From the NCBI GenBank assembly GCA_902619105.1, contig CACNCV010000001.1:2121-66120 (forward strand): a stretch of 64,000 nt of DNA. The letters are read 5' to 3'. Source of the stretch: an uncultured Pelagibacteraceae bacterium (GTDB lineage: Bacteria; Pseudomonadota; Alphaproteobacteria; Pelagibacterales; AG-422-B15). Of the stretch, positions 4,458 to 64,000 are shown in pieces. The position numbers were made by a program, and so were the translations under genes. Numbering within the stretch: the stretch's first letter is position 1; every line of letters begins with the position of its first letter. The notes below the pieces were generated by a model, which was given only the letters and a program-made list of their open reading frames with translations, had not been told where the DNA came from and searched no databases.

Positions 4458-5111
4458 ATGTTAAAGGCTGATAAGGCAAAAAAAATTATTAGTATTTTAA
4501 ATAAAATTTATCCCGAAACCCCAATTCCACTAAATCATAAAAATAATTTTGAATTATTAATTTCTGTTCTTCTAAGTGCGCAGTGTACAGATAAAAGGGT
4601 CAATGAAGTAACTCCATTGCTTTTTAAGAAAGCAAATAATCCTGCGAAAATGGAGAAGCTGCCAGTCAAAACCATTTATAATATTGTGAGACCCTGTGGT
4701 CTTGCTCCACAAAAATCGAAAGCTATCTCAAAGCTATCAAAAATATTAATGAAAAATTATAGTGGTAAGGTTCCAGAAACTTTTGAAGATCTAGAGGCGC
4801 TTCCTGGAGTAGGGCATAAAACAGCTAGTGTTGTAATGTCACAAGGTTTTGGTCACCCAGCATTTCCTGTTGATACTCATATTCATCGACTTGCCCAAAG
4901 ATGGGGGTTAACAAATGGTAAGAGTGTAAAACAAACTGAACATGATTTAAAAAAAATATTTCCCGAAAAACTATGGAACAAGTTACATTTACAAATAATA
5001 TTTTATGGAAGGGAATATTGTGAAGCTCGAAGTTGTTTTGGAATAGAGTGTAAAATATGTAAAACTTGTTATCCAACTAGAAAAAAGCCAATTAAAACAA
5101 AAAAAGCATAA
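4458..5111 (+). CDS. nth: Endonuclease III
   Basis: LLSAQCTD, LPGVGHKTA HhH, VDTHIHR, C-terminal Cys cluster. Confidence 0.96.
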   Translation: MLKADKAKKIISILNKIYPETPIPLNHKNNFELLISVLLSAQCTDKRVNEVTPLLFKKANNPAKMEKLPVKTIYNIVRPCGLAPQKSKAISKLSKILMKNYSGKVPETFEDLEALPGVGHKTASVVMSQGFGHPAFPVDTHIHRLAQRWGLTNGKSVKQTEHDLKKIFPEKLWNKLHLQIIFYGREYCEARSCFGIECKICKTCYPTRKKPIKTKKA

Positions 5112-5170
5112 ATGGTTATAAAAATAAAACACCTTTAACTGTCTATTGTTTGCTGATAACTTTATTCATT

Positions 5171-5902
5171 ATGATTAATAAAGAAGTAGCACTCATTATT
5201 GGTGCGGGTGACAGCCTTGGTTCTGCGGTAGCGAGAGTATTTGCACAAAATAACTTCATTACAGTAGTTGCTAGAAGGAACGGGGATCAATTATCACCAC
5301 TTAAAGAAGAGATAGAAAAAAATGGTGGAAAGTGTTTCGCATATAGTTTAGACGCAAGAAAAGAAGAAGATGTAATTAACTTTATTAATAAGATTGAAAC
5401 AGAGATTGGTGAAATTAATGTGGCCGTATACAACATTGGAGCCAACATTCGTTTCAACATTTTAGAAACAACCTCAAAAAAATATTATAAAGTATGGGAA
5501 ATGGCGACTTTTGGAGCATTTCTAATGGGAAGAGAAGTAACAAGAAAAATGATACCAAGAAAAAAAGGGACAATCATATTTACCGGCGCGACAGCAAGTA
5601 TAAGAGGTAAAGAAGGATTTGCTGCATTCTCCGGTGCTAAACAAGCGAAAAGAGCTTTGGCGCAAAGTATGGCGAAAGAATTAGCACCAAAAGGTATTCA
5701 TGTCGCTCATGTTATTGTAGATGGAGCAATTGATACGCCGTGGGTGAATAAGCTTTTTCCTGAGTATGTCAAAGAAAAGAAAAAAATTGATGGTTTGATG
5801 AAGCCAGATGATATTGCGCAAAACTACTTGATGATACATAATCAACCAAAAAATGCGTGGACGTTTGAGTTAGATTTACGTCCTTGGGTGGAAACATGGT
5901 GA
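5171..5902 (+). CDS. SDR-family oxidoreductase
   Basis: Rossmann GAGDSLG, YNIG, FTGATAS, GIHVAHVIVDG; ATG 5171 preferred over TTG 5150. Confidence 0.9.
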   Translation: MINKEVALIIGAGDSLGSAVARVFAQNNFITVVARRNGDQLSPLKEEIEKNGGKCFAYSLDARKEEDVINFINKIETEIGEINVAVYNIGANIRFNILETTSKKYYKVWEMATFGAFLMGREVTRKMIPRKKGTIIFTGATASIRGKEGFAAFSGAKQAKRALAQSMAKELAPKGIHVAHVIVDGAIDTPWVNKLFPEYVKEKKKIDGLMKPDDIAQNYLMIHNQPKNAWTFELDLRPWVETW

Positions 5903-6849
5903 ATCAAGAATTTGACATTGTTGGTATAGGAAATGCAATTGTAGATGTAATCACCGATGTCAATGATGAATTTATAAATCAACAAGAGCTAAGAAAAGGA
6001 CTTATGTCACTTGTAGATTTAGATACTATCAAATCCCTATCAAACAAAATTGAGATAAAAGCTAATGTCTCTGGGGGATCAGTCGCAAACTCAATCGTTG
6101 CATTAGCTCAAAATAATATCAAATCTGCTTTCATCGGCAAAGTAGGTAAAGACGAAGTTGGAAATTCGTTCATTCGAGGTCTTGAAAAAGAAAAAGTTGT
6201 TTTTGCAAATGAAGCCCGATCAGATGAAAGTGAAACTGGAAGATGTCTAGTAATGGTAACGCCAGATGCACAACGAACAATGAGTACATATTTAGGAATT
6301 TCTCAAAAACTAAAATCAAATGATATCAATGAGGATGTTATAGCACAGTCAAAAATTACTTATCTTGAAGGATACCTTTGGGACCTTGATGATGCGCAAG
6401 AAGCAATTAAAAAAGCAATAAAAATTTCTAAAGAGGCAAACAGGTTGGTTGCATTTAGTGTGTCTGATGTTTTTTGTATTGAACGTTTTAGAGAAAGTTT
6501 TTTAAATCTAGTTAATAATGAAGCTGATATAATTTTTGCAAATGAAGAGGAAATTAAATCGCTTTATCAAAAGGATAGTCTTGATGATTGTCTCGAAATT
6601 ATAAGTCAGCATGATAAAATATTTGCTATCACACTTGGTGAAAAAGGTGCGATGATTGCTAATAAAGATCAGCTTATACAAATAAAAGCTCAACAAATTG
6701 TAAATTTGGTCGATACTACTGGAGCAGGAGATCTATTTGCTGCAGGCTTCTTACTTGGATACATAAATGGTGAAAATTTAGAACAGTGTGGGAATGAAGG
6801 TGTAGCATTCGCCTCTAAAATAATTCAAATCTACGGAGCAAGGTTATGA
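5896..6849 (+). CDS. PfkB-family sugar/adenosine kinase
   Basis: GIGNAIVD, GGSVANS, YLEGYLWD, DTTGAGDLFAAGF; start ATG 5896 or GTG 5899. Confidence 0.92.
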   Translation: MVNQEFDIVGIGNAIVDVITDVNDEFINQQELRKGLMSLVDLDTIKSLSNKIEIKANVSGGSVANSIVALAQNNIKSAFIGKVGKDEVGNSFIRGLEKEKVVFANEARSDESETGRCLVMVTPDAQRTMSTYLGISQKLKSNDINEDVIAQSKITYLEGYLWDLDDAQEAIKKAIKISKEANRLVAFSVSDVFCIERFRESFLNLVNNEADIIFANEEEIKSLYQKDSLDDCLEIISQHDKIFAITLGEKGAMIANKDQLIQIKAQQIVNLVDTTGAGDLFAAGFLLGYINGENLEQCGNEGVAFASKIIQIYGARL

Positions 6850-7697
6850 GCAAAAAATCTATTATGATAACAGGTGTCTCTACTGGTATTGGACTAGGAA
6901 CACTTAGTTATTTTGTGAAAAACGGTTTTCACGTTTATGGAAGTATTCGTAATTCAAAAGATGCAAACAGATTAAAAAAAATTTATAAAGATAATTTTAC
7001 ACCTCTAATCTTTGATGTAACAAAAGAAGCTCAGCTAAAAAAGGCTTTCACATTTTTGAAAAAAGATCTCAAGAGTTCAAATCTTCTTGCTTTAGTTAAT
7101 AACGCAGGTGTAGCAATATCTGGCCCCTTATTACATCAAAGGGTGAAAGATTTTGAAAAACAAATTGATATTAATTTAAATGGTGCATTTAGAGTCATAA
7201 GATATTTTGCTCCATTGTGTGGAGCGGAAAAAAATAATAGTTCGAAGAAGGGTGTAATTTTTAATATAAGTTCAATTTCTGGAAAAATTGGAATGCCTGG
7301 CGTTGGAGCCTATACTGCATCTAAATTTGGTTTAGAGGGCTTAAGTCATAGTTTAAGAAGAGAATTGATTAGATACGGAGTTGATGTTGTAGTTATTGGA
7401 CCAGGCCCAATAAAAACTGAAATTTTTGATAAAATTGATAAAAAATTTTTAAACAGCCTCAAAAAAACTGATTATGCAAAGGCAGCCAAAGGAATACCTA
7501 AAAGAATGAAAAATGCCAAAAAGATAGCTTTTCCAGCTGAGGAAGTTGGAAAATTAATATTTAATGCGCTTCATAATCCAAACAGAAAAACACGGTATGC
7601 CATCACGCCAAGTAGAATGATGTATTGGACACTTCCAATGTTATTACCCGACAGAGTCTTAGATCAATTAATCAAAAGACGATCGGGAGAATTGTAA
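6846..7697 (+). CDS. SDR-family oxidoreductase
   Basis: TGVSTGIG, NNAG, YTASK catalytic motif. Confidence 0.92.
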   Translation: MSKKSIMITGVSTGIGLGTLSYFVKNGFHVYGSIRNSKDANRLKKIYKDNFTPLIFDVTKEAQLKKAFTFLKKDLKSSNLLALVNNAGVAISGPLLHQRVKDFEKQIDINLNGAFRVIRYFAPLCGAEKNNSSKKGVIFNISSISGKIGMPGVGAYTASKFGLEGLSHSLRRELIRYGVDVVVIGPGPIKTEIFDKIDKKFLNSLKKTDYAKAAKGIPKRMKNAKKIAFPAEEVGKLIFNALHNPNRKTRYAITPSRMMYWTLPMLLPDRVLDQLIKRRSGEL

Positions 7698-8666
7698 AAT
7701 TTTATTTGATTCTTTTATAACATCATCCGCTGAAATTAAATTAATATTACTACCACCAAATTTGACCGATGAAATAAAATGAATGTTTTCAAATTGATCA
7801 TTTAGAAACTTAACAGCGCTGGTTGGACCACATATTTTCAGCAATGGACATAGATTTGTTGATAGCATTTGCCCAGTGCCACTATCATTAGTAATTGCCA
7901 TACTTAAATATTTTGTAGCACCCATTACTACCTCAAGTCCCGGAAAATTAGATAGTTCCTCCTCAGGAAACATTGGTTTTTTAATTTGATTAATTATATC
8001 TTCCTTTAAATGAGTCTCTTGTGGGCCAAGAAAAAAAACTATTTCGAACCCTTTTGCTTCAAAATATTTAGCCACATCTATGAATTTTTTGTAGTCCCAT
8101 ATCCTCTTTGGCGTATTAGAGCCAAGTGAAATGCCAAAATACTTTTTATCTGCTTGGAAAACTTCTTGTAATTCTTTTAGTATTTCTTTTGGAATTGTTA
8201 TAGATGATGCTTGTTGTTTTTTATAACTTGATACTAAATCAAGCATCTCAATAATATTATTTACATAAAATTCCCTTTTTGATTTTTTGTCCTTGGGTTT
8301 ATAGTTTGAAAATATCCAATTAGCAGAGGCGGAGATGAATTTTGAACATTTAATTCTTCGCAACGCAATGGTGCGTAAAACCGCTTTTTGTGTATCAATG
8401 ATTATATCAAAATTTATATTTCTAAGATCATATTTTGAAGATATTCTTTTCCAAAAAAAAGGGCTTAAATTTACTTGCTCCCAAATTTTGTCAATATATG
8501 GCTCAGTAAATTTTTTTAAACGGGAATTATATTCAGTATAAATAGTATCAGTCATCCAATGGATTTCTGATGTTGGGAATCTTTCTCTTAACTGGTGGAC
8601 AATTTGAAGTTTTAATATTCCATCCCCAATTTGTTCACCATTACTGAAGATAAGAATCTTTTTCAT
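7668..8666 (-). CDS. Glycosyltransferase family 9 (heptosyltransferase-like)
   Basis: IGDxI N-terminal motif, ITNDSG and GPT C-terminal motifs. Confidence 0.8.
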   Translation of the reverse strand: MKKILIFSNGEQIGDGILKLQIVHQLRERFPTSEIHWMTDTIYTEYNSRLKKFTEPYIDKIWEQVNLSPFFWKRISSKYDLRNINFDIIIDTQKAVLRTIALRRIKCSKFISASANWIFSNYKPKDKKSKREFYVNNIIEMLDLVSSYKKQQASSITIPKEILKELQEVFQADKKYFGISLGSNTPKRIWDYKKFIDVAKYFEAKGFEIVFFLGPQETHLKEDIINQIKKPMFPEEELSNFPGLEVVMGATKYLSMAITNDSGTGQMLSTNLCPLLKICGPTSAVKFLNDQFENIHFISSVKFGGSNINLISADDVIKESNKILQFSRSSFD

Positions 8667-57287: not shown

Positions 57288-57427
57288 GGTTAGTAAGCTT
57301 ACACAAGAGATATGATTTATCCAACCACCTTTTCTATAATTAATTTAATGAACATAAAGAAACCATATTCTCAACAAAATAAAGGCGGGTATATCACTTA
57401 GAATTTCTCTAACTGAAAGGAATCATA

Positions 57428-58051
57428 ATGAATCAAAAAAACAAATCTAATCATCCAAAAATAGTTTTCAGTTTCTTTATTGTTCTTATTTTCTTTTTGC
57501 TCATGTTGAGTTTTACAGCAATTGCTGAAACAAAATCTAAAGGGTGGGAAGTATGGAATGATGATAAAAATGAATACATATACATAGATAAGTTTGGATC
57601 TATTTCACAAGCAGATTTAATGGCTTTAACATTGAAGCGTGACGATTGTGATACGATAAAAGCAAATATTTACATTACAAGTTTTGGCCTTCCAATTGCT
57701 GAAAACGGAAGAAGATTTAATGTAGAAATTACAGAGACGGACTATGAAGATAATTCGGAAGAATATAAAAACGAAGTTTATATAAGCTACTCTGAAATGC
57801 ATCATGGCAATATTGTCTATGTTTTATCCTTTGATGATGAATGGAAAACTCAAGATTGGATTAATCGACTTGATGAATTTGGACCCTACTACTTCCACTT
57901 AGAACTCTCTGAGCATACTGAAGAAGAATTAGAACCATCTATATATTTTGAACATACTGCAAACCTATGGGATATGGGTGACCTTCAAAAAATATTGGTT
58001 AATGAGTATCGAAATTGCCGATTTAAAGTTAACGAAAACGAATCTGTTTGA
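57428..58051 (+). CDS. Secreted acidic hypothetical protein
   Basis: SD GAAAGGA, signal ending AIA, D/E-rich. Confidence 0.75.
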   Translation: MNQKNKSNHPKIVFSFFIVLIFFLLMLSFTAIAETKSKGWEVWNDDKNEYIYIDKFGSISQADLMALTLKRDDCDTIKANIYITSFGLPIAENGRRFNVEITETDYEDNSEEYKNEVYISYSEMHHGNIVYVLSFDDEWKTQDWINRLDEFGPYYFHLELSEHTEEELEPSIYFEHTANLWDMGDLQKILVNEYRNCRFKVNENESV

Positions 58052-58125
58052 AATTTATAATATGTCCGAAATTATAGAGCTACTAAATATTGTTTTTATT
58101 ATTTCATTATGGAGCAACTGATTAA

Positions 58126-58704
58126 ATGATAAATAAAAATCCCATTAGTTTTCTACTTCTCTTTGCTTTACTTTTATTTTTTAATACTACAATATTAATT
58201 GCCCAAGATAAAAATGACTTTCCATATTTTTGTGATCTTTATATCAGTTACTATCCTGGATTTGATGGACAATCACACGAAGAATTTCATAAAATCAGCA
58301 ATTCGGTAAGAGCTAAGACTGTAATCTTTCATGGAGAACATCCATCGCACGGCCCGTTTGAGCAACTGGGAGTAAAACTCATGGCTGATGTTTGTTATAA
58401 AAATGAAAACACAGGTCAGGTATATGTTGAGGATCCCGATGATATATGGATAAAGCACTCAAATATAAATGTTAAAAAACATCAATACTCCCTTACAGAT
58501 TTTATTTTAATATTCCTTGATGATAATAAAACAAATGAAGAAAATGATGAATGTAAAGATAAATGGTGGACTTCTTTTGAAGAAGATAAAAGAGTCATAA
58601 TTAAAGTTGCAGATATTTGGCAAGGAACGACCGCCCATTACTCCACAGCTTATGCTATCTCACCCGAGGACATCATGATCAATGGAAAGTGGATTTGTTC
58701 TTAA
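58126..58704 (+). CDS. Secreted hypothetical protein
   Basis: SD GGAG, signal ending LIA, four Cys. Confidence 0.75.
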   Translation: MINKNPISFLLLFALLLFFNTTILIAQDKNDFPYFCDLYISYYPGFDGQSHEEFHKISNSVRAKTVIFHGEHPSHGPFEQLGVKLMADVCYKNENTGQVYVEDPDDIWIKHSNINVKKHQYSLTDFILIFLDDNKTNEENDECKDKWWTSFEEDKRVIIKVADIWQGTTAHYSTAYAISPEDIMINGKWICS

Positions 58705-58831
58705 CATGGAAGAATTAGATGCTGTTTTAAACTTAGTATTTTTTATAATGACAATTTTTGATCTAGTAGATGTCAATATTTATACAGTTCTAGTATAGAA
58801 ACATACGGGAATAAGATAATCTATGTCCAAA

Positions 58832-60622
58832 CTAATTATTAAAGTGATTTTTAATATAAGTATAAATTTCTTGTCCTTTTAGTTCGTCTGTAGCTACACT
58901 CTCTCTGACATAAAACTTATCTTCAGTGAATATTGGTTCTTTAGATTTTTCACACTCAATCAATATGATGTCTTTTCCATCAATATTAATAATCCGAGTA
59001 CTGTATAAGTCATAATTGCCAGCTCCTAATTTTGCTTTAAATTTATTTTTCATATGATTTAAGAACTTATCATTACTCTTCTTGTGCAGCTTTTCTACTT
59101 CTTGTTCAATACCTAAGATTTCCCCATTATCATTAACACCTATTAAAAGTTTCCCACCTTCACTGTTAAAAAAGCCGGCAAGAGTTTTTATGCATCCTTG
59201 CTGAAGATATTCACCTTGTTCCTTTTTAGCTACATCCCAGCCAAATGTTTCTTTAAATTCTAAAGTTTGGCTCTCACCCCATTTCCTTATGAGGCTTTTA
59301 ATTTTGTCAGCTTCAGTTAATTTTCCTAAAGCATCAATTATTGAGTCTAGTCTATCTATGTCTTCTTTTGATGTTGGATTCAACAGTAAATTTTTCTGAA
59401 ATAATCCAAACTCTGAATATGCTTGAGAGATTTTCTTAACCGTTTCTAATATTTTAATTTGTTCATTTATATTAGGTAGTGGTACTTGAATTTTTGTTAG
59501 ATTAGATTTGATAATTTTTGAAATCAGAGAGCCAGTCTTTATTGAATTAAGAAGGATTTTGCCTGTTTCACTATTAAGATAAGCTACTAAGTATTCAGGC
59601 TCGACTTTCTCCTGAATAACATTAACTTGAAAAATATTTTGTGATTTAAGTATTTCTTTATCAAATGGCAAGCTTCTACAATCTTGAGTTCCTAAAGCTG
59701 GTATATAAATTGAGTTTTCTTTATGAATAAATTCCTTTTCGAATACACCTTGTCTAATTTCATTACTTATTTCATCAAGAAAGACGTGATCATACTTATT
59801 GTAACTCGTTTCAATGCTTTTCATGTCATATAAACCGTTTATTAACTCAAACGATTGGAACTCACTAAGTTCCTTGTGAATTCCATGCCGTAAATCATAT
59901 TCTATATTTTCTCCTAATCTTTTATTATTAGTTTCACTACTTTGACTCTTCGATATTCTAAAACTAGATACATTCTGATTTACTATCTCTTGCGAAACAT
60001 GTTGCATTTGATCGTCATGTGGGTAAATTTCACTAAATTCTGCAAAATAAGACTGATTGTGTATTTTTTTATCTACAAAAATTATAACTCCATCTATTCC
60101 GGTAATTGGCTCTCCAAATCCTTTAGGTAATTTAATGATTGAATTTATTGAGTATCCTTTCTCTCCAATCATATTTTGCAAGTTGTCGATTTTATTTTTA
60201 TAAAAATTTGGGTAGTAAAATATACCCAATCCTGAATCGTTTATTAAGTCTACGCTGTCAAAGATAAAATTATTATCTGACTGAATACCATTTTTTTTTA
60301 ATCCCCAAGGAAAAAACTTTATTAAAAGATCCCATTTCGTTTTTCTGTAGAGTTCTAAATCATCTTCAACTTCAATCAAATCAAAATCTATATTATGAAG
60401 AAGAACTTCAGGTATGAATAAATGGGCATAATTTAATAATAGTTTTGATTTGGGTTTCTTTATTTCAATTAGTTTTTTAAAAAATTGATAGAGTAATCTG
60501 TGTGCATCAAATCCATATTTATAGGTATGATAAAATAGTTCCTTAGGATCCGAATATTGTTTTTGTTTATCAATTATATTTTCTTTTAATCTTTCTAAGT
60601 AAAATAAATTTAATTCTTTCAT
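58832..60622 (-). CDS. Fusion: degenerate HsdM-like MTase domain + HsdS-like TRD + Schlafen/AlbA_2 domain
   Basis: KWDLLIKFFPWG, LINDSGLGIFYYP and IIKLPKGF..ITGI (HsdM-like); PEYLVAYLNS...IQVPLPNINEQIKI (HsdS-like); GESQTLEFK...AGFFNSEGGKLLIGVNDNG (AlbA_2). Confidence 0.8.
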   Translation of the reverse strand: MKELNLFYLERLKENIIDKQKQYSDPKELFYHTYKYGFDAHRLLYQFFKKLIEIKKPKSKLLLNYAHLFIPEVLLHNIDFDLIEVEDDLELYRKTKWDLLIKFFPWGLKKNGIQSDNNFIFDSVDLINDSGLGIFYYPNFYKNKIDNLQNMIGEKGYSINSIIKLPKGFGEPITGIDGVIIFVDKKIHNQSYFAEFSEIYPHDDQMQHVSQEIVNQNVSSFRISKSQSSETNNKRLGENIEYDLRHGIHKELSEFQSFELINGLYDMKSIETSYNKYDHVFLDEISNEIRQGVFEKEFIHKENSIYIPALGTQDCRSLPFDKEILKSQNIFQVNVIQEKVEPEYLVAYLNSETGKILLNSIKTGSLISKIIKSNLTKIQVPLPNINEQIKILETVKKISQAYSEFGLFQKNLLLNPTSKEDIDRLDSIIDALGKLTEADKIKSLIRKWGESQTLEFKETFGWDVAKKEQGEYLQQGCIKTLAGFFNSEGGKLLIGVNDNGEILGIEQEVEKLHKKSNDKFLNHMKNKFKAKLGAGNYDLYSTRIINIDGKDIILIECEKSKEPIFTEDKFYVRESVATDELKGQEIYTYIKNHFNN

Positions 60623-60642
60623 AGTTACTAAAAGTTTATAAT

Positions 60643-62979
60643 TTAATATAAATACCTCTGAAAATTTATAAAACTTTCCTTTATGTCTTCAGCATTCCCC
60701 ATTTGAACTTGAGCGTCATGGATACTTTTATATTTAATTATCAATAATTCACTCAAACGGTCCAGATCAAGCTCTTCAATACCTGACTCAACATATTTGC
60801 CTAAGACAAAATCAATGAACTCTTTGTGTTCAGGATTTAAATTATCTTTCATTAATTCTTCTGATTGTTCAACTCTCTGTGTTCTTGAAATAGGTTTCTT
60901 TGTGTAGGCAATATACTCTAATACATCATATATATCACTGTCTTCTGCTTCTATAAGAGATTGTATAGACCTCAAATCACTCAGAGTGAAGCCGTTCTCC
61001 TTAAGTTTCTTTAAAAGTTCATTTCTGGTAATTGGGGAGCGCCATAGTTCTCTTAATTCTTCTTCACTTTTAAGTATGTTCGGTAATGTAATAGTATTAA
61101 ATAATTTTTTAATAAACTCTTCAGCTGTTACTGGTTGGCCTTGAAAATAAAAAAGAGATGTGGACATAGATTTAATTGTAAGTTCTTTTCCTTCAGCCAG
61201 TTTGATTACTATTTTTTCTTTAGGCTCTTGGGGTTCTGGATCTTCTCCTGGATCATCAATTAGTCCTTGATCTGGTTCTCGATCATCGCCAGGTTTTGTG
61301 CCAGTCTCGTCTTCTGGAATTGGATCTCCATCCCACTCAGGATCGGAAAAATTAGCTGAAGCACCTACAAAATCAACAACTGTGAAATAGAATTTATCCT
61401 CAAATAGCCTTGTGCCTCTGCCTATGATTTGTTTGAATTCAATCATATTGTTAACAGGTCTCATTAATACGATGTTGCGAATATTAAGCGCGTCCACACC
61501 TGTGCTTAGTTTTTGACTGGTTGTTAAGATTGTTGGTAAAGTTTTTTCATTATCTTGGAACTGTCTAAGATGTGTATCACCTGTTTCAGTATCTTTAGAA
61601 GTTACTCTGACACAATAATCAGCAGGAGGATTAACTGATAATTGATTAATTAAATCTCTAACCATTCCTGCATGGGCAATACTTGCACAAAAAACGAGTG
61701 TTTTTTCTTTTGTATTTATACTGTCCAACATTAGTTGAACCCGTTTTTTTTCTCTCTCTTCAATAACAATTTTTTTATTAAAATCCTTCTCTTTAAATAC
61801 TTCGCCTTCTTCAAGTTGTTCCTCACCCGATAAGACTTCATCATCACCTGTATATACATACTCATCCATTGTTGTTTGAATTCTTTTGACTTTAAATGGC
61901 GTTAAGAAACCATCCTTGATTCCATCTTTAAGTGAATAAGTGTAAACAGGTTCTCCGAAATAAGAGTAAGTATCAGCATTAAATTTTCTCTTTGGAGTTG
62001 CGGTTAATCCAATTTGAACAGCCGAAGCAAAATAATCTAATATTCCTCGCCAACGACTTTCATCTTTAGCCCCACCTCTGTGACACTCATCAACAATAAC
62101 CAAATCGAAAAAATCTGCAGGATATTGTCCAAAATAAGGTTTGTTTTCAGGACCTGACATGAAGCTCTGGAAAATTGTGAAGAATACAGATCCATTCGTT
62201 GGGACACGGCCTTTATCTTTTACATCTTTAGGAGTAATCCTAACCAAAGCATTTTCATCAAAAGCACTAAATGAATTAAAAGCCTGATTAGCAAGTATGT
62301 TTCTATCTGCAAGAAATAGAATACGCGGGATTCTCTTACCATCTCTTTGCATATTCCATCGTGCTTGAAATAATTTCCATGCAATATGAAATGCTATGAC
62401 TGTTTTTCCAGTTCCTGTGGCTAAGGTGAGTAATATCCGTTGTTGTTTGTCAGCTATAGCATCTAGCGCGTTATTTATTGCAATTTCTTGGTAATAACGT
62501 GGTTCTCTCGTTCCCTTGAAAGGTTCAAATGGTATTGCATCAAATTTACTGGACCATTCATTTTTATCTTTAAATGTCTTATCCCATAACTCATCAGGTG
62601 TTGGATATTTATCTATTTCACCCTCAGAGGTAATGAACATTTCACCTTGCTCATTTTTAGAATAATTTATGCAATAAATTTTCTTACCATTTGAAGAATA
62701 TGTCGTAAGAATTTTTAACTTTTGAGCGTAGTCTTTTGCTTGTTGAACTCCATCACTCACAGGCAATTCATCGCTTTTAGCTTCAATGACTGCTAATTTT
62801 CTATTTTTGTAAATTAATACGTAATCGGCTCTGATAATTCCTGCGCGAATGCCGCCTGGCTTAATCTCACCATTTGTAATTTTAAACTCTCTTCGGACCA
62901 AACTACCTTCAACAACTCCCCATCCTGCATCTTTTATCTTAGGGTCAATCAGCTCTGCACGGGTATCTGCTTCGTTCAT
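60643..62979 (-). CDS. hsdR: Type I restriction enzyme R subunit (EcoAI/EcoEI-like)
   Basis: ADYVL..VIEAK nuclease, LATGTGKT, DECHRG, GLTATP, QIIGRGTR. Confidence 0.96.
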   Translation of the reverse strand: MNEADTRAELIDPKIKDAGWGVVEGSLVRREFKITNGEIKPGGIRAGIIRADYVLIYKNRKLAVIEAKSDELPVSDGVQQAKDYAQKLKILTTYSSNGKKIYCINYSKNEQGEMFITSEGEIDKYPTPDELWDKTFKDKNEWSSKFDAIPFEPFKGTREPRYYQEIAINNALDAIADKQQRILLTLATGTGKTVIAFHIAWKLFQARWNMQRDGKRIPRILFLADRNILANQAFNSFSAFDENALVRITPKDVKDKGRVPTNGSVFFTIFQSFMSGPENKPYFGQYPADFFDLVIVDECHRGGAKDESRWRGILDYFASAVQIGLTATPKRKFNADTYSYFGEPVYTYSLKDGIKDGFLTPFKVKRIQTTMDEYVYTGDDEVLSGEEQLEEGEVFKEKDFNKKIVIEEREKKRVQLMLDSINTKEKTLVFCASIAHAGMVRDLINQLSVNPPADYCVRVTSKDTETGDTHLRQFQDNEKTLPTILTTSQKLSTGVDALNIRNIVLMRPVNNMIEFKQIIGRGTRLFEDKFYFTVVDFVGASANFSDPEWDGDPIPEDETGTKPGDDREPDQGLIDDPGEDPEPQEPKEKIVIKLAEGKELTIKSMSTSLFYFQGQPVTAEEFIKKLFNTITLPNILKSEEELRELWRSPITRNELLKKLKENGFTLSDLRSIQSLIEAEDSDIYDVLEYIAYTKKPISRTQRVEQSEELMKDNLNPEHKEFIDFVLGKYVESGIEELDLDRLSELLIIKYKSIHDAQVQMGNAEDIKESFINFQRYLY

Positions 62980-64000
62980 GCTGCCTCGCTTTGTAATTCT
63001 TTTGCGAGGATAGCTGACTTTAATTTTTGGAGGTTGTCTATTTTTTTGGCCTTATTGGCAATAAGCTTTTCTGTCTCTGTATTAAGCTCTCTTAATTGCT
63101 GTCTAATTTTGATCTGCTCATCTTTAGATTGGGGTAAAAAAATAGATAGGTTTTGCCATTTTGATTTATTTATTATTGGCAAAGTTGCCTGTCCTGCTTT
63201 GTAAAGTACATCACTTTGAAAGCGCCTCCCCCGCATTTGCCAATAAATTAACTCCACATCAAATTCTTCTGATGGTGTTAGAGAGTTTATTTGCTGGTTA
63301 AAGCAAGCATCGACGTCATTAACCCCAACTTTGCCAATTGTTGCGCCAATACAGACCATTAGTACTGAGTTAGCTGCTGCGATGCGAGATTGTTTAGAAC
63401 CTTTAGGGGTTAGGCCATCATCAACAATTGTAATTGTACCATCTGAGTTAAAATGTGGTGGTTTAATAAATGGAAATCCTTCACCATAATTATCCTTTTG
63501 AGAAGTTTTTGGCGTACTGCCCGTTTGAATAACACCTAAATCCATAACTTTAAACTCTGTCCAATTACTATCACCTGCGGTCTTAGCATCAATGAAATTG
63601 GATAAATTAGTTTCAGATAGTGTAATTGTTTTTTTTGCAGTTTGAATTTGTAATTCAATCTCAGCAAATGCTGCATCAATTTTGGCTACGATGCGTTTCT
63701 GCTCTACAAGTGGAGGGAGTTTTATTTCTGCTGAAAGAATATCTTTTTTGCTGATATTTATTTGTAACCCACCAGCTCCCAAGCTCTTATAATAATCTTT
63801 AAGGGACGTAAGATAGTAACTTATAAAAGGCACAAAAACTTTTTCTGAAAAACTATGCAGTTTGCCAACCCGCTGATTGAGTAGAAATGTCCTTTCTCTT
63901 ACTCCTTCTACCAATGTCGGTTTGCCCAAAATCTTTGGATCCCCAGCCATATCGGTCATAGCGATTATTAAATCGCCATCAAATAATCTATAACTCGCAT
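62976..64000 (-). CDS. hsdS: Type I R-M specificity subunit (5' truncated by window)
   Basis: LPPLVEQKRIVAKID, TGSTP, IGATIGK, FNQQI, LKSAIL; frame stays open from 63959 to window end. Confidence 0.93.
   Translation of the reverse strand, partial: ASYRLFDGDLIIAMTDMAGDPKILGKPTLVEGVRERTFLLNQRVGKLHSFSEKVFVPFISYYLTSLKDYYKSLGAGGLQINISKKDILSAEIKLPPLVEQKRIVAKIDAAFAEIELQIQTAKKTITLSETNLSNFIDAKTAGDSNWTEFKVMDLGVIQTGSTPKTSQKDNYGEGFPFIKPPHFNSDGTITIVDDGLTPKGSKQSRIAAANSVLMVCIGATIGKVGVNDVDACFNQQINSLTPSEEFDVELIYWQMRGRRFQSDVLYKAGQATLPIINKSKWQNLSIFLPQSKDEQIKIRQQLRELNTETEKLIANKAKKIDNLQKLKSAILAKELQSEAA

What the first reader, a model, noticed from the sequence alone, without database searches (positions are those of the whole stretch)
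58832..64000. Type I R-M locus carrying a pseudo-MTase/TRD decoy fused to a Schlafen (AlbA_2) nuclease: candidate R-M guard or abortive-infection system
Seen: a 596-aa gene starts 20 nt after the hsdR stop, co-directional. Residues ~96-185 follow HsdM motif order: KWDLLIKFFPWG where F-D-x-x-x-x-NPPF/Y-G is expected, then LINDSGLGIFYYP, then IIKLPKGF...TGI. The catalytic NPPF/Y is replaced by FFPW and no SAM-binding motif I is visible. Residues ~280-395 resemble one HsdS TRD plus its conserved PLP..EQ..I helix. After a helical linker, ~450-585 is an AlbA_2/Schlafen domain with intact E-x4-EFK and AxxNxxGGxLxIGVxDxG. Established: Schlafen domains are tRNA/rRNA endonucleases; PrrC is an anticodon nuclease embedded in a type I R-M operon and activated by a phage anti-restriction peptide; Ocr and ArdA are DNA mimics that bind the HsdM/HsdS core. 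Inference: the protein mimics an M-S half-complex, acting as bait for anti-restriction proteins or docking onto the cognate enzyme, and releases an RNase when R-M is attacked.
Basis: partly seen in the sequence, partly recalled or inferred. Interest (0 to 1): 0.85.

Follow-up and report, generated by a model that had tools for sequence, protein, structure and literature searches.

The report
Dead methylase-TRD sensor fused to Schlafen nuclease
The last gene of this type I restriction-modification island encodes a likely anti-phage protein in which a catalytically dead copy of the restriction system's own DNA-recognition module is fused to an intact Schlafen-type RNA-cutting domain, a combination that has been noticed in surveys but never studied.

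Summary
Window 58832-60622 (-) encodes a 596-aa protein that starts 20 nt after the stop of an EcoAI-family (type IB) hsdR, at the end of an hsdM-hsdS-hsdR operon.

A confident AlphaFold model (pLDDT 88.7) and profile searches show three parts:
- A gamma-class adenine-methyltransferase fold with no SAM loop and no (D/N/S)PP(F/Y/W) motif.
- One HsdS-type TRD with its conserved helices.
- A Schlafen/AlbA_2 nuclease domain with invariant Ex4ExK and Asp.

It belongs to a large, uncharacterised family: 349 representative clusters at E<=1e-30. The common ~550-aa forms all lack methylase motifs. Rarer ~800-aa forms carry a full HsdM and sit at the head of type I operons.

The 339-residue TRD-to-C-terminus part is predicted to homodimerise through its HsdS-like helices, which would give an M2S1-like clamp. 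R-M genes lie next to 7 of 18 well-flanked short-form loci; other copies stand alone.

Best reading: a sensor-effector prokaryotic Schlafen defence protein (tRNase, abortive infection) whose sensor is a dead M.S module. The trigger is unknown.

Two 2026 papers mention Schlafen fusions to methyltransferases or S subunits in R-M systems but do not characterise them. I rate it a new variant of a known kind.

The parts
58832..60622 (-). 596-aa gene (P0001): pseudo-methylase, TRD, Schlafen fusion; last gene of the hsdM-hsdS-hsdR-X operon
   Evidence: ORF list and translation; Pfam; AlphaFold model with pLDDT 88.7 and pTM 0.75 from a 130-row alignment
59825..60598 (-). Residues ~9-266: degenerate gamma-class N6-adenine methyltransferase catalytic fold (HsdM-like), without the HsdM N-terminal domain
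   Evidence: VIA: 7bto_A HsdM Z 13.9 (model 9-266 against chain 182-475); 3lkd_B Z 13.8; 2okc_B Z 13.6. No Pfam N6_Mtase hit at E<=1
60302..60334 (-). Residues 97-107, WDLLIKFFPWG: relic of methylase motif IV (FFPW in place of NPPF/Y)
   Evidence: hhalign places it on the long-form FD...PPF motif; 0 of 130 family members have canonical [DNS]PP[FYW] here
59471..59812 (-). Residues ~271-384: a single HsdS-type target recognition domain
   Evidence: Pfam Methylase_S E 5.6e-6; PADLOC Specificity_I and mad5 models; VIA 1yf2_A HsdS Z 11.5, rmsd 2.5, model 271-415
59279..59470 (-). Residues 385-448: conserved helices (H385-414, H419-431, H437-448); predicted homodimer interface, equivalent to the HsdS conserved-region coiled coil
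   Evidence: Secondary structure of the model; predicted interface residues 387-434 plus 270-274 and 351-353
58835..59278 (-). Residues 449-596: Schlafen/AlbA_2 nuclease domain
   Evidence: Pfam PF04326 E 4.5e-20; VIA 3lmm_C Z 13.3, SAMD9 7ksp_A Z 12.7, rSAMD9 tRNase domain 9o0d_C Z 12.2
59252..59275 (-). E450-x4-E455-F-K457: catalytic Ex4ExK motif (D498 is at 59129-59131)
   Evidence: E450, E455 and K457 are invariant in 130 of 130; D498 in 127 of 130. The motif is defined in PMC13056530, section 6
60643..62979 (-). hsdR, EcoAI/type IB family, 778 aa
   Evidence: NCBIfam NF046051 786.6 bits; PADLOC REase_I E 6.5e-138; Pfam ResIII, EcoEI_R_C, HSDR_N
62976..64000 (-). hsdS (402 aa; runs past the window end to window-equivalent 64184); hsdM follows at window-equivalent 64181-65635
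   Evidence: Pfam Methylase_S, two stretches; L002 ORFs 5097-6305 and 6302-7756; N6_Mtase and HsdM_N
57288..64000 (.). In-window part of an ~8.4-kb strain-specific island (window-equivalent 57288-65662): two unknown ORFs, X, hsdR, hsdS, hsdM
   Evidence: blastn against three same-genus genomes. Window 57287 joins 65663 with a gap of about 10 nt in L114, L115 and L116

Best explanation
The gene encodes a single-chain sensor-effector defence protein of the prokaryotic Schlafen (pSlfn) class. It arrived in this genome together with a type IB R-M system.

The effector is the C-terminal Schlafen/AlbA_2 domain (Ex4ExK plus Asp). By analogy with the characterised bacterial Schlafens, it most likely cuts tRNA and arrests translation, giving abortive infection.

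The sensor is an HsdM catalytic domain that has lost SAM binding and catalysis, fused to one HsdS TRD with its conserved helices. Two chains are predicted to pair through those helices. That would rebuild an M2S1-like DNA clamp that carries two nuclease domains.

Inferred mechanism. At rest the two Schlafen domains are held apart or mis-oriented. When a ligand fills and closes the clamp, they pair into the two-lobed active nuclease. The ligand could be foreign DNA or a DNA-mimicking anti-restriction protein. The protein would thus act as a second layer behind restriction.

Shown here: the domain anatomy, the loss of methylase motifs across the family, conservation of the nuclease triad, the partial link to R-M and defence genes, and the island nature of the locus.

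Inferred: RNase (not DNase) activity, dimer-gated activation, the identity of the trigger, and the anti-phage phenotype.

My odds: a defence Schlafen effector with an M.S-derived sensor, about 0.7. The whole mechanism as stated, about 0.5. Within it, a DNA ligand about 0.3 and a DNA-mimic ligand about 0.15-0.2.
For: Nuclease. AlbA_2 scores above the Pfam cut-off. E450, E455 and K457 are invariant and D498 is 127 of 130. The fold matches the SAMD9 tRNase domain at Z 12.2 and 3lmm at Z 13.3.

Sensor. The methylase and TRD folds are confirmed. Canonical motif IV is present in 0 of 130 and GxG in 2 of 130.

Descent from HsdM fusions. hhalign of short against long forms gives probability 100. Seven of 8 long forms tested carry HsdM_N and N6_Mtase. 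Among 17 long forms, motif IV grades from NPPF/Y (6) and SPPF (3) to H/I/T/C/V-PPF (7), with 1 gapped.

Dimer. For residues 258-596 in two copies, the score was 0.60 against a best of 3 controls of 0.00. That mark was reached by 20 of 30 proteins solved as pairs of one chain and by 1 of 23 solved as single chains. The runs share at least 63% of contacts and the partner pLDDT is at least 81. My own alignment was used, so the calibration counts hold only roughly. The interface is residues 387-434. A like arrangement, the two conserved helices of HsdS, is solved, so the pass may come from likeness.

Context. R-M genes lie beside 7 of 18 short-form loci that have at least 3 kb of flank. Type I operons lie within 10 kb of 4 of 5 long-form loci. 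Other neighbours include AbiLi, type IV Mrr and GmrSD. In this genome the gene lies in an 8.4-kb island absent from 3 same-genus genomes. The full-length protein is found in 1 of 60 genomes of the taxonomic family.

Rate pattern. In the closest pair (P0001 and P0004), the sensor differs at 13% of sites, the helices at 1.6% and the nuclease at 4%.

Precedent. Bacterial Schlafens are phage-triggered tRNases with fused sensors (PMC13056530, section 6 and passages). A DNA-sensing Argonaute gates a Schlafen tRNase through oligomerisation (preprint 10.64898/2026.05.29.728809, abstract and passages). Cash is a cA4-gated Schlafen tRNase (PMC13462974, sections 11 and 12).
Against: No activity, toxicity or phage phenotype has been measured for any member of this family.

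The predicted dimer interface holds no residue of the nuclease domain, so gated pairing of the Schlafen domains is pure inference.

Eleven of the 18 well-flanked short-form loci have no R-M neighbour. Seven of those 11 sit beside housekeeping-type genes such as dnaX, sucC, ApbE, STT3 and cell-wall enzymes. A DNA sensor with no cognate methylase nearby would have to avoid self-DNA in some unexplained way.

PADLOC has no model that covers the whole protein; its hits are TRD only.

The second close pair (P0013 and P0014) does not show a faster-evolving sensor.

Schlafen/AlbA_2 domains also bind DNA: 7ksp is a SAMD9 domain solved with DNA. RNA as the substrate is therefore not proven.
Confidence: 0.5

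Rival explanations
1. Anti-restriction decoy or guard. The dead M.S clamp is bait for DNA-mimic proteins such as Ocr or ArdA. Capturing one switches on the Schlafen RNase, as PARIS and PrrC respond to anti-restriction.
For: It explains why methylase chemistry is dispensable (0 of 130 with motif IV).

It explains why the TRD is about twice as conserved as the neighbouring true HsdS TRDs in the same nine loci: 0.33 against 0.15 and 0.18 mean pairwise identity.

It explains why stand-alone copies need no cognate methylase.

The predicted dimer rebuilds the M2S1 shape that Ocr and ArdA bind in solved complexes (7eew, 7bst and 7bto appear among the fold matches).

PARIS is cited as an anti-restriction-induced tRNase system in PMC13056530.
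Against: There is no direct evidence. No complex with a DNA mimic was modelled or measured. The fold matches to Ocr- or ArdA-bound structures arise from the methylase chains alone. How such a clamp would ignore the cell's own DNA is unexplained. Only 8 of 30 short-form loci have R-M genes to guard nearby.
Confidence: 0.15
2. DNA-cutting restriction enzyme. This would be a type IIG/ISP-like derivative in which the dead methylase+TRD reads a DNA site and the AlbA_2 domain cleaves DNA. Self-protection would come from the adjacent type I methylase or from targeting modified DNA only.
For: The closest whole-chain folds are methylase+TRD enzymes, including the type IIG enzyme BpuSI. Long forms have an apparently active methylase fused to the same TRD and nuclease, which is the layout of a type IIG enzyme. 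In L103 and L104 the gene lies 11 nt from a Mrr-helicase protein that matches the nuclease-motor half of type IIG/ISP enzymes (PADLOC E 5.2e-146). An AlbA_2 domain has been solved bound to DNA (7ksp).
Against: Every prokaryotic Schlafen characterised in the papers I read is a tRNase. The X TRD does not resemble either TRD of the neighbouring HsdS, so shared methyl-protection is not indicated. Stand-alone copies would lack protection.
Confidence: 0.12
3. Accessory subunit of the motor enzyme. The M2S1-like dimer docks HsdR (or an ISP-like Mrr-helicase), either as an alternative specificity core or to attach an RNase arm to the restriction complex.
For: The gene sits 20 nt after hsdR here. In L095 it sits 698 nt after hsdR, with a 193-aa ORF between them. 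In L103 and L104 it lies 11 nt before a motor-nuclease that lacks its own methylase-TRD half. Long forms head complete type I operons.
Against: Short forms lack the HsdM N-terminal domain (one search compared). Many copies have no motor gene nearby. All five genomes with stand-alone copies do hold HsdM-type genes elsewhere, but so do 12 of 14 control genomes, so that test says nothing. No interaction was modelled.
Confidence: 0.1
4. Non-defence DNA-binding regulator. The AlbA_2 domain would serve as a nucleic-acid-binding module and the TRD as a site reader, for example as a controller of the R-M operon.
For: About 30% of prokaryotic Schlafen genes are not near defence genes (PMC13056530, section 6). 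Several homologues sit among housekeeping genes.
Against: The catalytic Ex4ExK motif and Asp are invariant or nearly so across 130 members, which is not expected of a mere binding module. The gene is in an accessory island and is present in 1 of 60 related genomes.
Confidence: 0.05

Closest known systems
Prokaryotic Schlafen defence proteins (pSlfn; e.g. RorSlfn5 and EcoSlfn7, PMC13056530; Cash, PMC13462974; SLFN-pAgo, preprint 10.64898/2026.05.29.728809)
   Same: A Schlafen/AlbA_2 nuclease with Ex4(E/D)xK fused to a variable sensor, defence-island context, and activity controlled by oligomerisation. EcoSlfn7 likewise borrows a restriction-system DNA-sensing domain (DUF262).
   Different: Here the sensor is a catalytically dead HsdM-like domain plus one HsdS TRD. 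None of the characterised members has this sensor. No ATPase, Ig-like, CARF-like or Argonaute part is present.
'Cluster 3' Schlafen-methyltransferase fusions in R-M systems (PMC13462974, section 11), and the Schlafen-ATPase module fused to a type I S subunit in Poribacteria (preprint 10.64898/2026.05.29.728809, section 5)
   Same: A Schlafen domain fused directly to R-M methyltransferase or specificity parts, and associated with R-M operons. The long forms found here (HsdM_N-N6_Mtase-TRD-AlbA_2) probably are that cluster.
   Different: Those mentions are one sentence each and have no function attached. In the text I read, neither says that the methylase is dead or that a shortened ~550-aa form predominates. 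The Poribacteria fusion carries a GHKL ATPase, which is absent here. The supplementary tables that could settle identity are closed.
PrrC / RloC anticodon nucleases in type I R-M loci, and PARIS (AriA/AriB)
   Same: A latent tRNase genetically tied to restriction and acting as a back-up when restriction is countered. It may work like these.
   Different: There is no ABC/AAA ATPase, HEPN or Toprim domain. The nuclease fold and the sensor are both unrelated. It is not a member.
Type I M2S1 methyltransferase core (HsdM2-HsdS), M-S fusions and single-chain methylase+TRD enzymes (M.TaqI, CamA, BpuSI, 7eew)
   Same: The same methylase fold packed on an HsdS-type TRD, with conserved helices predicted to pair two chains as half-size S subunits do.
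   Different: Motifs I and IV are lost. The HsdM N-terminal domain is absent. There is only one TRD per chain. A nuclease is attached at the C-terminus.

Membership tests
Schlafen / AlbA_2 nuclease (PF04326; pSlfn) | Profile match above the curated cut-off | tested here: met
   72.8 bits against a cut-off of 25.3, residues 450-575
Schlafen / AlbA_2 nuclease (PF04326; pSlfn) | Catalytic Ex4(E/D)xK motif plus a downstream acidic residue | tested here: met
   E450, E455 and K457 in 130 of 130; D498 in 127 of 130. The motif is as given in PMC13056530, section 6. Equating D498 with the third catalytic acid of mammalian SLFN13 is recalled, not tested
Schlafen / AlbA_2 nuclease (PF04326; pSlfn) | Fold of the nuclease lobe | tested here: met
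   3lmm_C Z 13.3 (141 aligned, rmsd 3.3); 9o0d_C rSAMD9 tRNase domain Z 12.2
Schlafen / AlbA_2 nuclease (PF04326; pSlfn) | tRNA cleavage and phage defence phenotype | not testable with these tools
   Needs expression and RNA assays
Gamma-class N6-adenine DNA methyltransferase (HsdM, PF02384) | Rossmann-type methylase fold | tested here: met
   HsdM chains Z 12.3-13.9 over model residues ~9-270
Gamma-class N6-adenine DNA methyltransferase (HsdM, PF02384) | Motif IV (D/N/S)PP(Y/F/W) | tested here: not met
   FFPW in this protein; 0 of 130 short forms are canonical
Gamma-class N6-adenine DNA methyltransferase (HsdM, PF02384) | Motif I glycine-rich SAM loop | tested here: not met
   GxG in the equivalent loop in 2 of 130, not in this protein. 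Long forms keep YDPxCGxGG
Gamma-class N6-adenine DNA methyltransferase (HsdM, PF02384) | Sequence-profile membership | tested here: not met
   No N6_Mtase hit at E<=1. One relative (P0005) has a precomputed PF02384 hit
Type I specificity subunit HsdS (PF01420) | TRD profile match and fold | tested here: met
   27.1 bits against a cut-off of 22; 1yf2_A Z 11.5, rmsd 2.5
Type I specificity subunit HsdS (PF01420) | Two TRDs alternating with two conserved helical regions in one chain | tested here: not met
   One TRD (271-384) and one helical region (385-448). A two-chain equivalent is predicted
PrrC / RloC anticodon nucleases | ABC-type ATPase head plus HEPN-type nuclease | tested here: not met
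   No such domains in the Pfam, NCBIfam or PADLOC scans
PARIS (AriA/AriB) | AriA ATPase and AriB Toprim nuclease | tested here: not met
   No AriA or AriB model hit for this protein. An AbiLi/AriA-like ATPase is merely a neighbour in L096
Type IIG / ISP restriction-modification enzymes | Active methylase plus a PD-(D/E)xK or Mrr nuclease (with or without a helicase) in one chain with the TRD | tested here: not met
   The methylase motifs are lost and no PD-(D/E)xK or Mrr domain is found. Only the methylase+TRD fold is shared (BpuSI Z 11.0)

The most novel reading that the evidence does not exclude
The protein is a molecular decoy built from the guarded enzyme's own fold. A catalytically dead (HsdM-TRD)2 clamp no longer reads DNA sequence but captures phage DNA-mimic anti-restriction proteins (Ocr/ArdA-like). 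Capture pairs its two Schlafen domains into an active tRNase. This would be a self-contained integrated-decoy guard of type I restriction, widespread across bacterial and archaeal phyla.
Probability: 0.15. Interest if true: 0.85.

Novelty: new variant of a known kind. Interest (0 to 1): 0.6.

Why it matters
Prokaryotic Schlafens have only just been shown to be phage-triggered tRNases. The open question is what their many fused sensor domains detect.

This family offers a sensor of known ancestry: the type I R-M methylase core. Its chemistry has been discarded while its shape was kept. The family also shows a visible series from apparently active HsdM fusions to dead short forms.

That makes a concrete question testable: does a dead restriction-enzyme core sense foreign DNA, or the phage proteins that attack restriction?

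The family is large (349 representative clusters at E<=1e-30) and spans many phyla, including an archaeon. It has no name in PADLOC v2. If the decoy reading held, it would be a bacterial counterpart of the integrated decoys of plant immune receptors.

Tried and rejected
Single-sequence AlphaFold gave an unusable model (pLDDT 33.9). The 130-row alignment was needed.

phmmer against PDB sequences gave only weak TRD and SLFN12 hits.

I asked whether the X TRD copies a TRD of the adjacent HsdS, which would imply shared specificity. Only generic similarity was found (29% over 87 aa, E 6e-4), so I dropped the idea.

I asked whether stand-alone copies depend on a type I system elsewhere. N6_Mtase genes were present in 5 of 5 such genomes but also in 12 of 14 control genomes, so the test is uninformative.

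A phage origin was checked. A scan of viral contigs with two TRD-region patterns found 203 pattern matches, none a relative. That was one pattern set only, so it is not proof of absence.

PADLOC, Pfam and NCBIfam give no system name for the protein.

The two small ORFs in the island have no Pfam or PADLOC hits.

The promoter and terminator scans were at background level: 23 promoter-like sites against 27.8 expected, and 3 terminator-like sites against 2.4 expected. I did not use them.

Literature. Five searches found no paper characterising a methylase-TRD-Schlafen protein. 'Schlafen' together with 'HsdM' occur in 2 papers, and neither concerns this architecture. Supplementary Table 2 of PMC13056530 (pSlfn1-55) and Supplementary Data 3 of PMC13462974 may list this architecture. 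Supplements are closed, so I could not check.

Rows dropped:
- P0010 (N-terminally truncated) was left out of A2.
- From I used 119 of the 150 listed proteins (lengths about 520-641 aa) and left out fragments and the 13 long forms.
- L105 (601 aa, still SNPPFG) was set aside from the short-form counts.
- L086 and L087 are duplicates but are counted separately.
- The other 68 loci share only the AlbA_2 domain and were not analysed.

Full report
WHAT IS THERE

On the minus strand the window ends with an operon, hsdM-hsdS-hsdR-X. hsdM lies just beyond the window (L002 6302-7756; HsdM_N plus N6_Mtase, E 6.7e-64). hsdS is 402 aa, from window 62976 to past the window end. hsdR is 778 aa at 60643-62979 and belongs to the EcoAI/type IB family (NCBIfam NF046051, 786.6 bits against a cut-off of 550). 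X is 596 aa at 58832-60622. The gap between the hsdR stop and the X start is 20 nt.

DOMAINS OF X

Pfam finds SLFN_AlbA_2 at residues 450-575 (E 4.5e-20) and Methylase_S at 258-400 (E 5.6e-6). There is a weak TaqI_C hit and nothing for the first 250 residues. PADLOC and NCBIfam hit only the TRD.

A single-sequence fold failed. With a 130-row family alignment (A2) the model reached pLDDT 88.7 and pTM 0.75.

Foldseek against the PDB returned 118 matches at E<=0.001. The list was led by single-chain methylase+TRD enzymes (7eew_A at E 1.5e-13, CamA, BpuSI, M.TaqI, M.BseCI, BrxX) and type I HsdM chains, together with the AlbA_2 protein 3lmm.

The VIA second look gives ranges for each domain:
- Model 9-266 on EcoR124I HsdM 182-475: Z 13.9, rmsd 3.4, 200 aligned.
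- Model 36-386 on M.TaqI: Z 14.1, rmsd 4.5, 284 aligned.
- Model 271-415 on the HsdS structure 1yf2: Z 11.5, rmsd 2.5.
- Model 437-596 on 3lmm: Z 13.3.
- Model 436-596 on the SAMD9 DNA-binding/tRNase domain: 7ksp Z 12.7, 9o0d Z 12.2.

The three-domain reading (methylase fold, TRD plus helix, Schlafen) is confirmed by structure prediction and fold comparison.

THE METHYLASE IS DEAD, FAMILY-WIDE

A search of 1.84 billion representatives found 5698 proteins at E<=0.001 and 349 at E<=1e-30. Most of the best 150 are about 520-640 aa, like X. Thirteen are 728-904 aa.

Seven of 8 long forms tested carry HsdM_N plus N6_Mtase, followed by the same TRD and AlbA_2. Profile-profile alignment of the short forms (A2) with 17 long forms (A5) gives probability 100 and E 6.5e-131. 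It lays the short-form 'DlI.gd.P.g' on the long-form 'fD.vvs.PPF'.

At that site none of the 130 short forms has [DNS]PP[FYW]. The commonest tetrads are DLPL, DFPF and DLPI; X has FFPW. Only 2 of 130 have GxG in the loop that replaces motif I.

Long forms keep YDPxCGxGG, but their motif IV already varies: NPPF/Y 6, SPPF 3, HPPF 2, I/T/C/C/V-PPF 5, and one gapped, of 17. One 601-aa protein (L105) still has SNPPFG. The family thus shows a graded loss of methylase chemistry.

The nuclease site, by contrast, is fixed. E450, E455 and K457 are 130 of 130 and D498 is 127 of 130. This matches the Ex4(E/D)xK motif reported for prokaryotic Schlafens (PMC13056530, section 6).

OLIGOMER

Two copies of residues 258-596 are predicted to bind each other. 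The score was 0.60 against a best of three controls of 0.00. That mark was reached by 20 of 30 proteins solved as pairs of one chain and by 1 of 23 solved as single chains. The runs share at least 63% of contacts and the partner pLDDT is at least 81. My own alignment was used, so the calibration counts hold only roughly.

The confident interface is residues 387-434, plus 270-274 and 351-353. These are the helices that follow the TRD, and they correspond to the conserved regions that form the coiled coil of HsdS. Because HsdS structures are solved, the pass may reflect that likeness. No residue of the Schlafen domain lies in the confident interface. If the prediction is right, two chains rebuild an M2S1-shaped clamp with two nuclease domains attached.

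CONTEXT

In this genome the segment from window 57288 to window-equivalent 65662 is missing from three same-genus genomes. It holds two unknown ORFs, X, hsdR, hsdS and hsdM. In those genomes the cupin gene abuts acs with a gap of about 10 nt. The full-length protein is found in 1 of 60 genomes of the taxonomic family. The one other match (G025, E 2.1e-4) covers only the TRD. X therefore arrived with the R-M system in an 8.4-kb accessory island.

Elsewhere, I examined 30 short-form loci: the window, 7 from genomes and 22 from metagenomes.
- Five have HsdM, HsdS or HsdR homologues within 5 kb: the window, L005, L095, L096 and L099.
- L004 has a type IV Mrr enzyme (PADLOC mREase_IV, E 1.8e-58) and an HsdM-like fragment.
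- L103 and L104 have, 11 nt away, a Mrr-helicase protein that matches the motor-nuclease half of type IIG/ISP enzymes (E 5.2e-146).

That makes 8 of 30 loci, or 7 of the 18 that have at least 3 kb of flank on one side.

L096 also carries AbiLi. L090 has a NERD protein and L093 a Cas4-like PD-(D/E)xK protein. The remaining well-flanked loci mostly sit beside housekeeping-type genes: M23 peptidase and amidase, sucC, STT3, surface repeat proteins, dnaX (three related contigs) and ApbE. L009's neighbours were not annotated.

Of 5 long-form loci, 4 have a complete type I system within 10 kb. Three have it 6-160 nt downstream, with GmrSD or an AAA_15 ATPase inserted.

The link to R-M and defence genes is real but not obligatory. 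It resembles the figures reported for prokaryotic Schlafens in general, where 69.6% lie within 10 kb of a defence gene (PMC13056530, section 6).

WHAT THE SENSOR MAY READ

The X TRD is not specifically like either TRD of its neighbouring HsdS. Across the nine loci that have both genes, X TRDs share 0.33 mean pairwise identity. The neighbouring HsdS TRDs share 0.15 and 0.18. The sample is small and some members are close kin.

Within the 130-member family, mean pairwise identity is 0.21 for the methylase-like part, 0.30 for the TRD, 0.30 for the helices and 0.47 for the nuclease.

X's TRD therefore does not diversify the way true specificity subunits do, which points to a common ligand rather than strain-specific DNA sites. 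In the closest pair (P0001 and P0004, 90% identical), changes concentrate in the sensor: 13% there, against 1.6% in the helices and 4% in the nuclease. A second close pair does not show this.

MECHANISM

In the papers I read, the characterised prokaryotic Schlafens are tRNases held inactive until a fused or partner sensor changes their oligomeric state:
- An Ig-like domain senses a T5 tail chaperone (PMC13056530, passages and section 6).
- cA4 drives Cash from dodecamer to filament (PMC13462974, section 12).
- DNA-target recognition by an Argonaute core releases the SLFN tRNase, and dimerisation rebuilds the two-lobed mammalian architecture (preprint 10.64898/2026.05.29.728809, abstract).

By analogy, I propose that X is a latent tRNase. 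Its dead M.S clamp is the sensor, and ligand-driven closure of the clamp pairs the two Schlafen domains. This is inference; only the anatomy is shown.

The trigger is open. Foreign DNA fits the long forms with an intact methylase, which could mark self. It fits the stand-alone dead forms poorly. It has no direct support. The rivals are a DNA-cutting enzyme, a subunit docking onto HsdR-type motors, and a regulator. They are listed with their tests.

COMPARISON WITH THE KNOWN

The protein is a member of the Schlafen/AlbA_2 nuclease family by profile, motif and fold. It is not a functional member of the N6-methylase family, because motifs I and IV were tested and not met. It is not a canonical HsdS, because it has one TRD. 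It is not PrrC/RloC or PARIS, because it has no ATPase, HEPN or Toprim domain. It may nevertheless work like the last two.

[quoted passage not shown] The SLFN-pAgo preprint (section 5 passage) notes a Schlafen-ATPase module fused to a type I S subunit. Neither passage describes a dead methylase or the short form.

My five literature searches found no characterisation. The supplementary tables that list the architectures are closed, so prior listing cannot be excluded.

VERDICT

This is a new variant of a known kind: a prokaryotic Schlafen defence effector with a pseudo-M.S sensor. It is widespread and unnamed, and the question it raises about its trigger can be tested directly. Interest 0.6.

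Noticed in passing
window 57428-58051 (+) and 58126-58704 (+): Two ORFs of 207 and 192 aa, convergent with X, lie inside the same 8.4-kb island that is absent from three same-genus genomes. Neither has a Pfam or PADLOC hit.
   Followed up: partly
L103 3005-8084 and L104 230-3236: A short-form X lies 11 nt upstream of a 1151-aa Mrr_cat_2-ResIII-helicase-HA protein. That protein matches only the nuclease-motor half of type IIG/ISP enzyme models (PADLOC E 5.2e-146), as if X supplied the missing methylase-TRD half in trans. Two unknown proteins (497 and 229 aa) precede X in L103.
   Followed up: partly
L021 15000-16838; L011 9726-11066; L096 3504-4790: Other defence genes are inserted inside or beside the type I operons that carry X homologues: GmrSD between hsdS and hsdR (L021), an AAA_15/AAA_21 ATPase (L011), and AbiLi (E 2.5e-90) next to X (L096).
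   Followed up: partly
L009 9878-11512: The X homologue of a cyanobacterial MAG is interrupted by an in-frame stop inside the conserved AFLN...GG stretch of the Schlafen domain, giving 433- and 93-aa pieces. This is either a pseudogene or an assembly error.
   Followed up: partly
L105 633-2438: A 601-aa relative keeps a canonical SNPPFG motif IV and matches HsdM at E 6.8e-40 while being as short as the dead forms. It may be an intermediate between long and short forms.
   Followed up: partly
L116 8671-11925 (G022): A related genome has a different ~3.2-kb insertion at the rpe/cupin junction, a few hundred bases from where G000 carries the R-M island. This stretch may be a hot spot for insertions.
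   Followed up: no
L002 9733-10149 (-), just beyond the window end: An EVE-domain protein (PUA-like fold, E 2.6e-47) is encoded between gpsA and acs, outside the island. Its role here is unknown.
   Followed up: no
(P0016-P0021, L014-L082): The AlbA_2 domain of X is 33-46% identical to those of many other architectures. These include fusions with PF09997 (~377 aa, also in Pacearchaeota) and with DUF262/GmrSD_N and HNH domains. 461 of 600 pattern matches in genomes were relatives.
   Followed up: no
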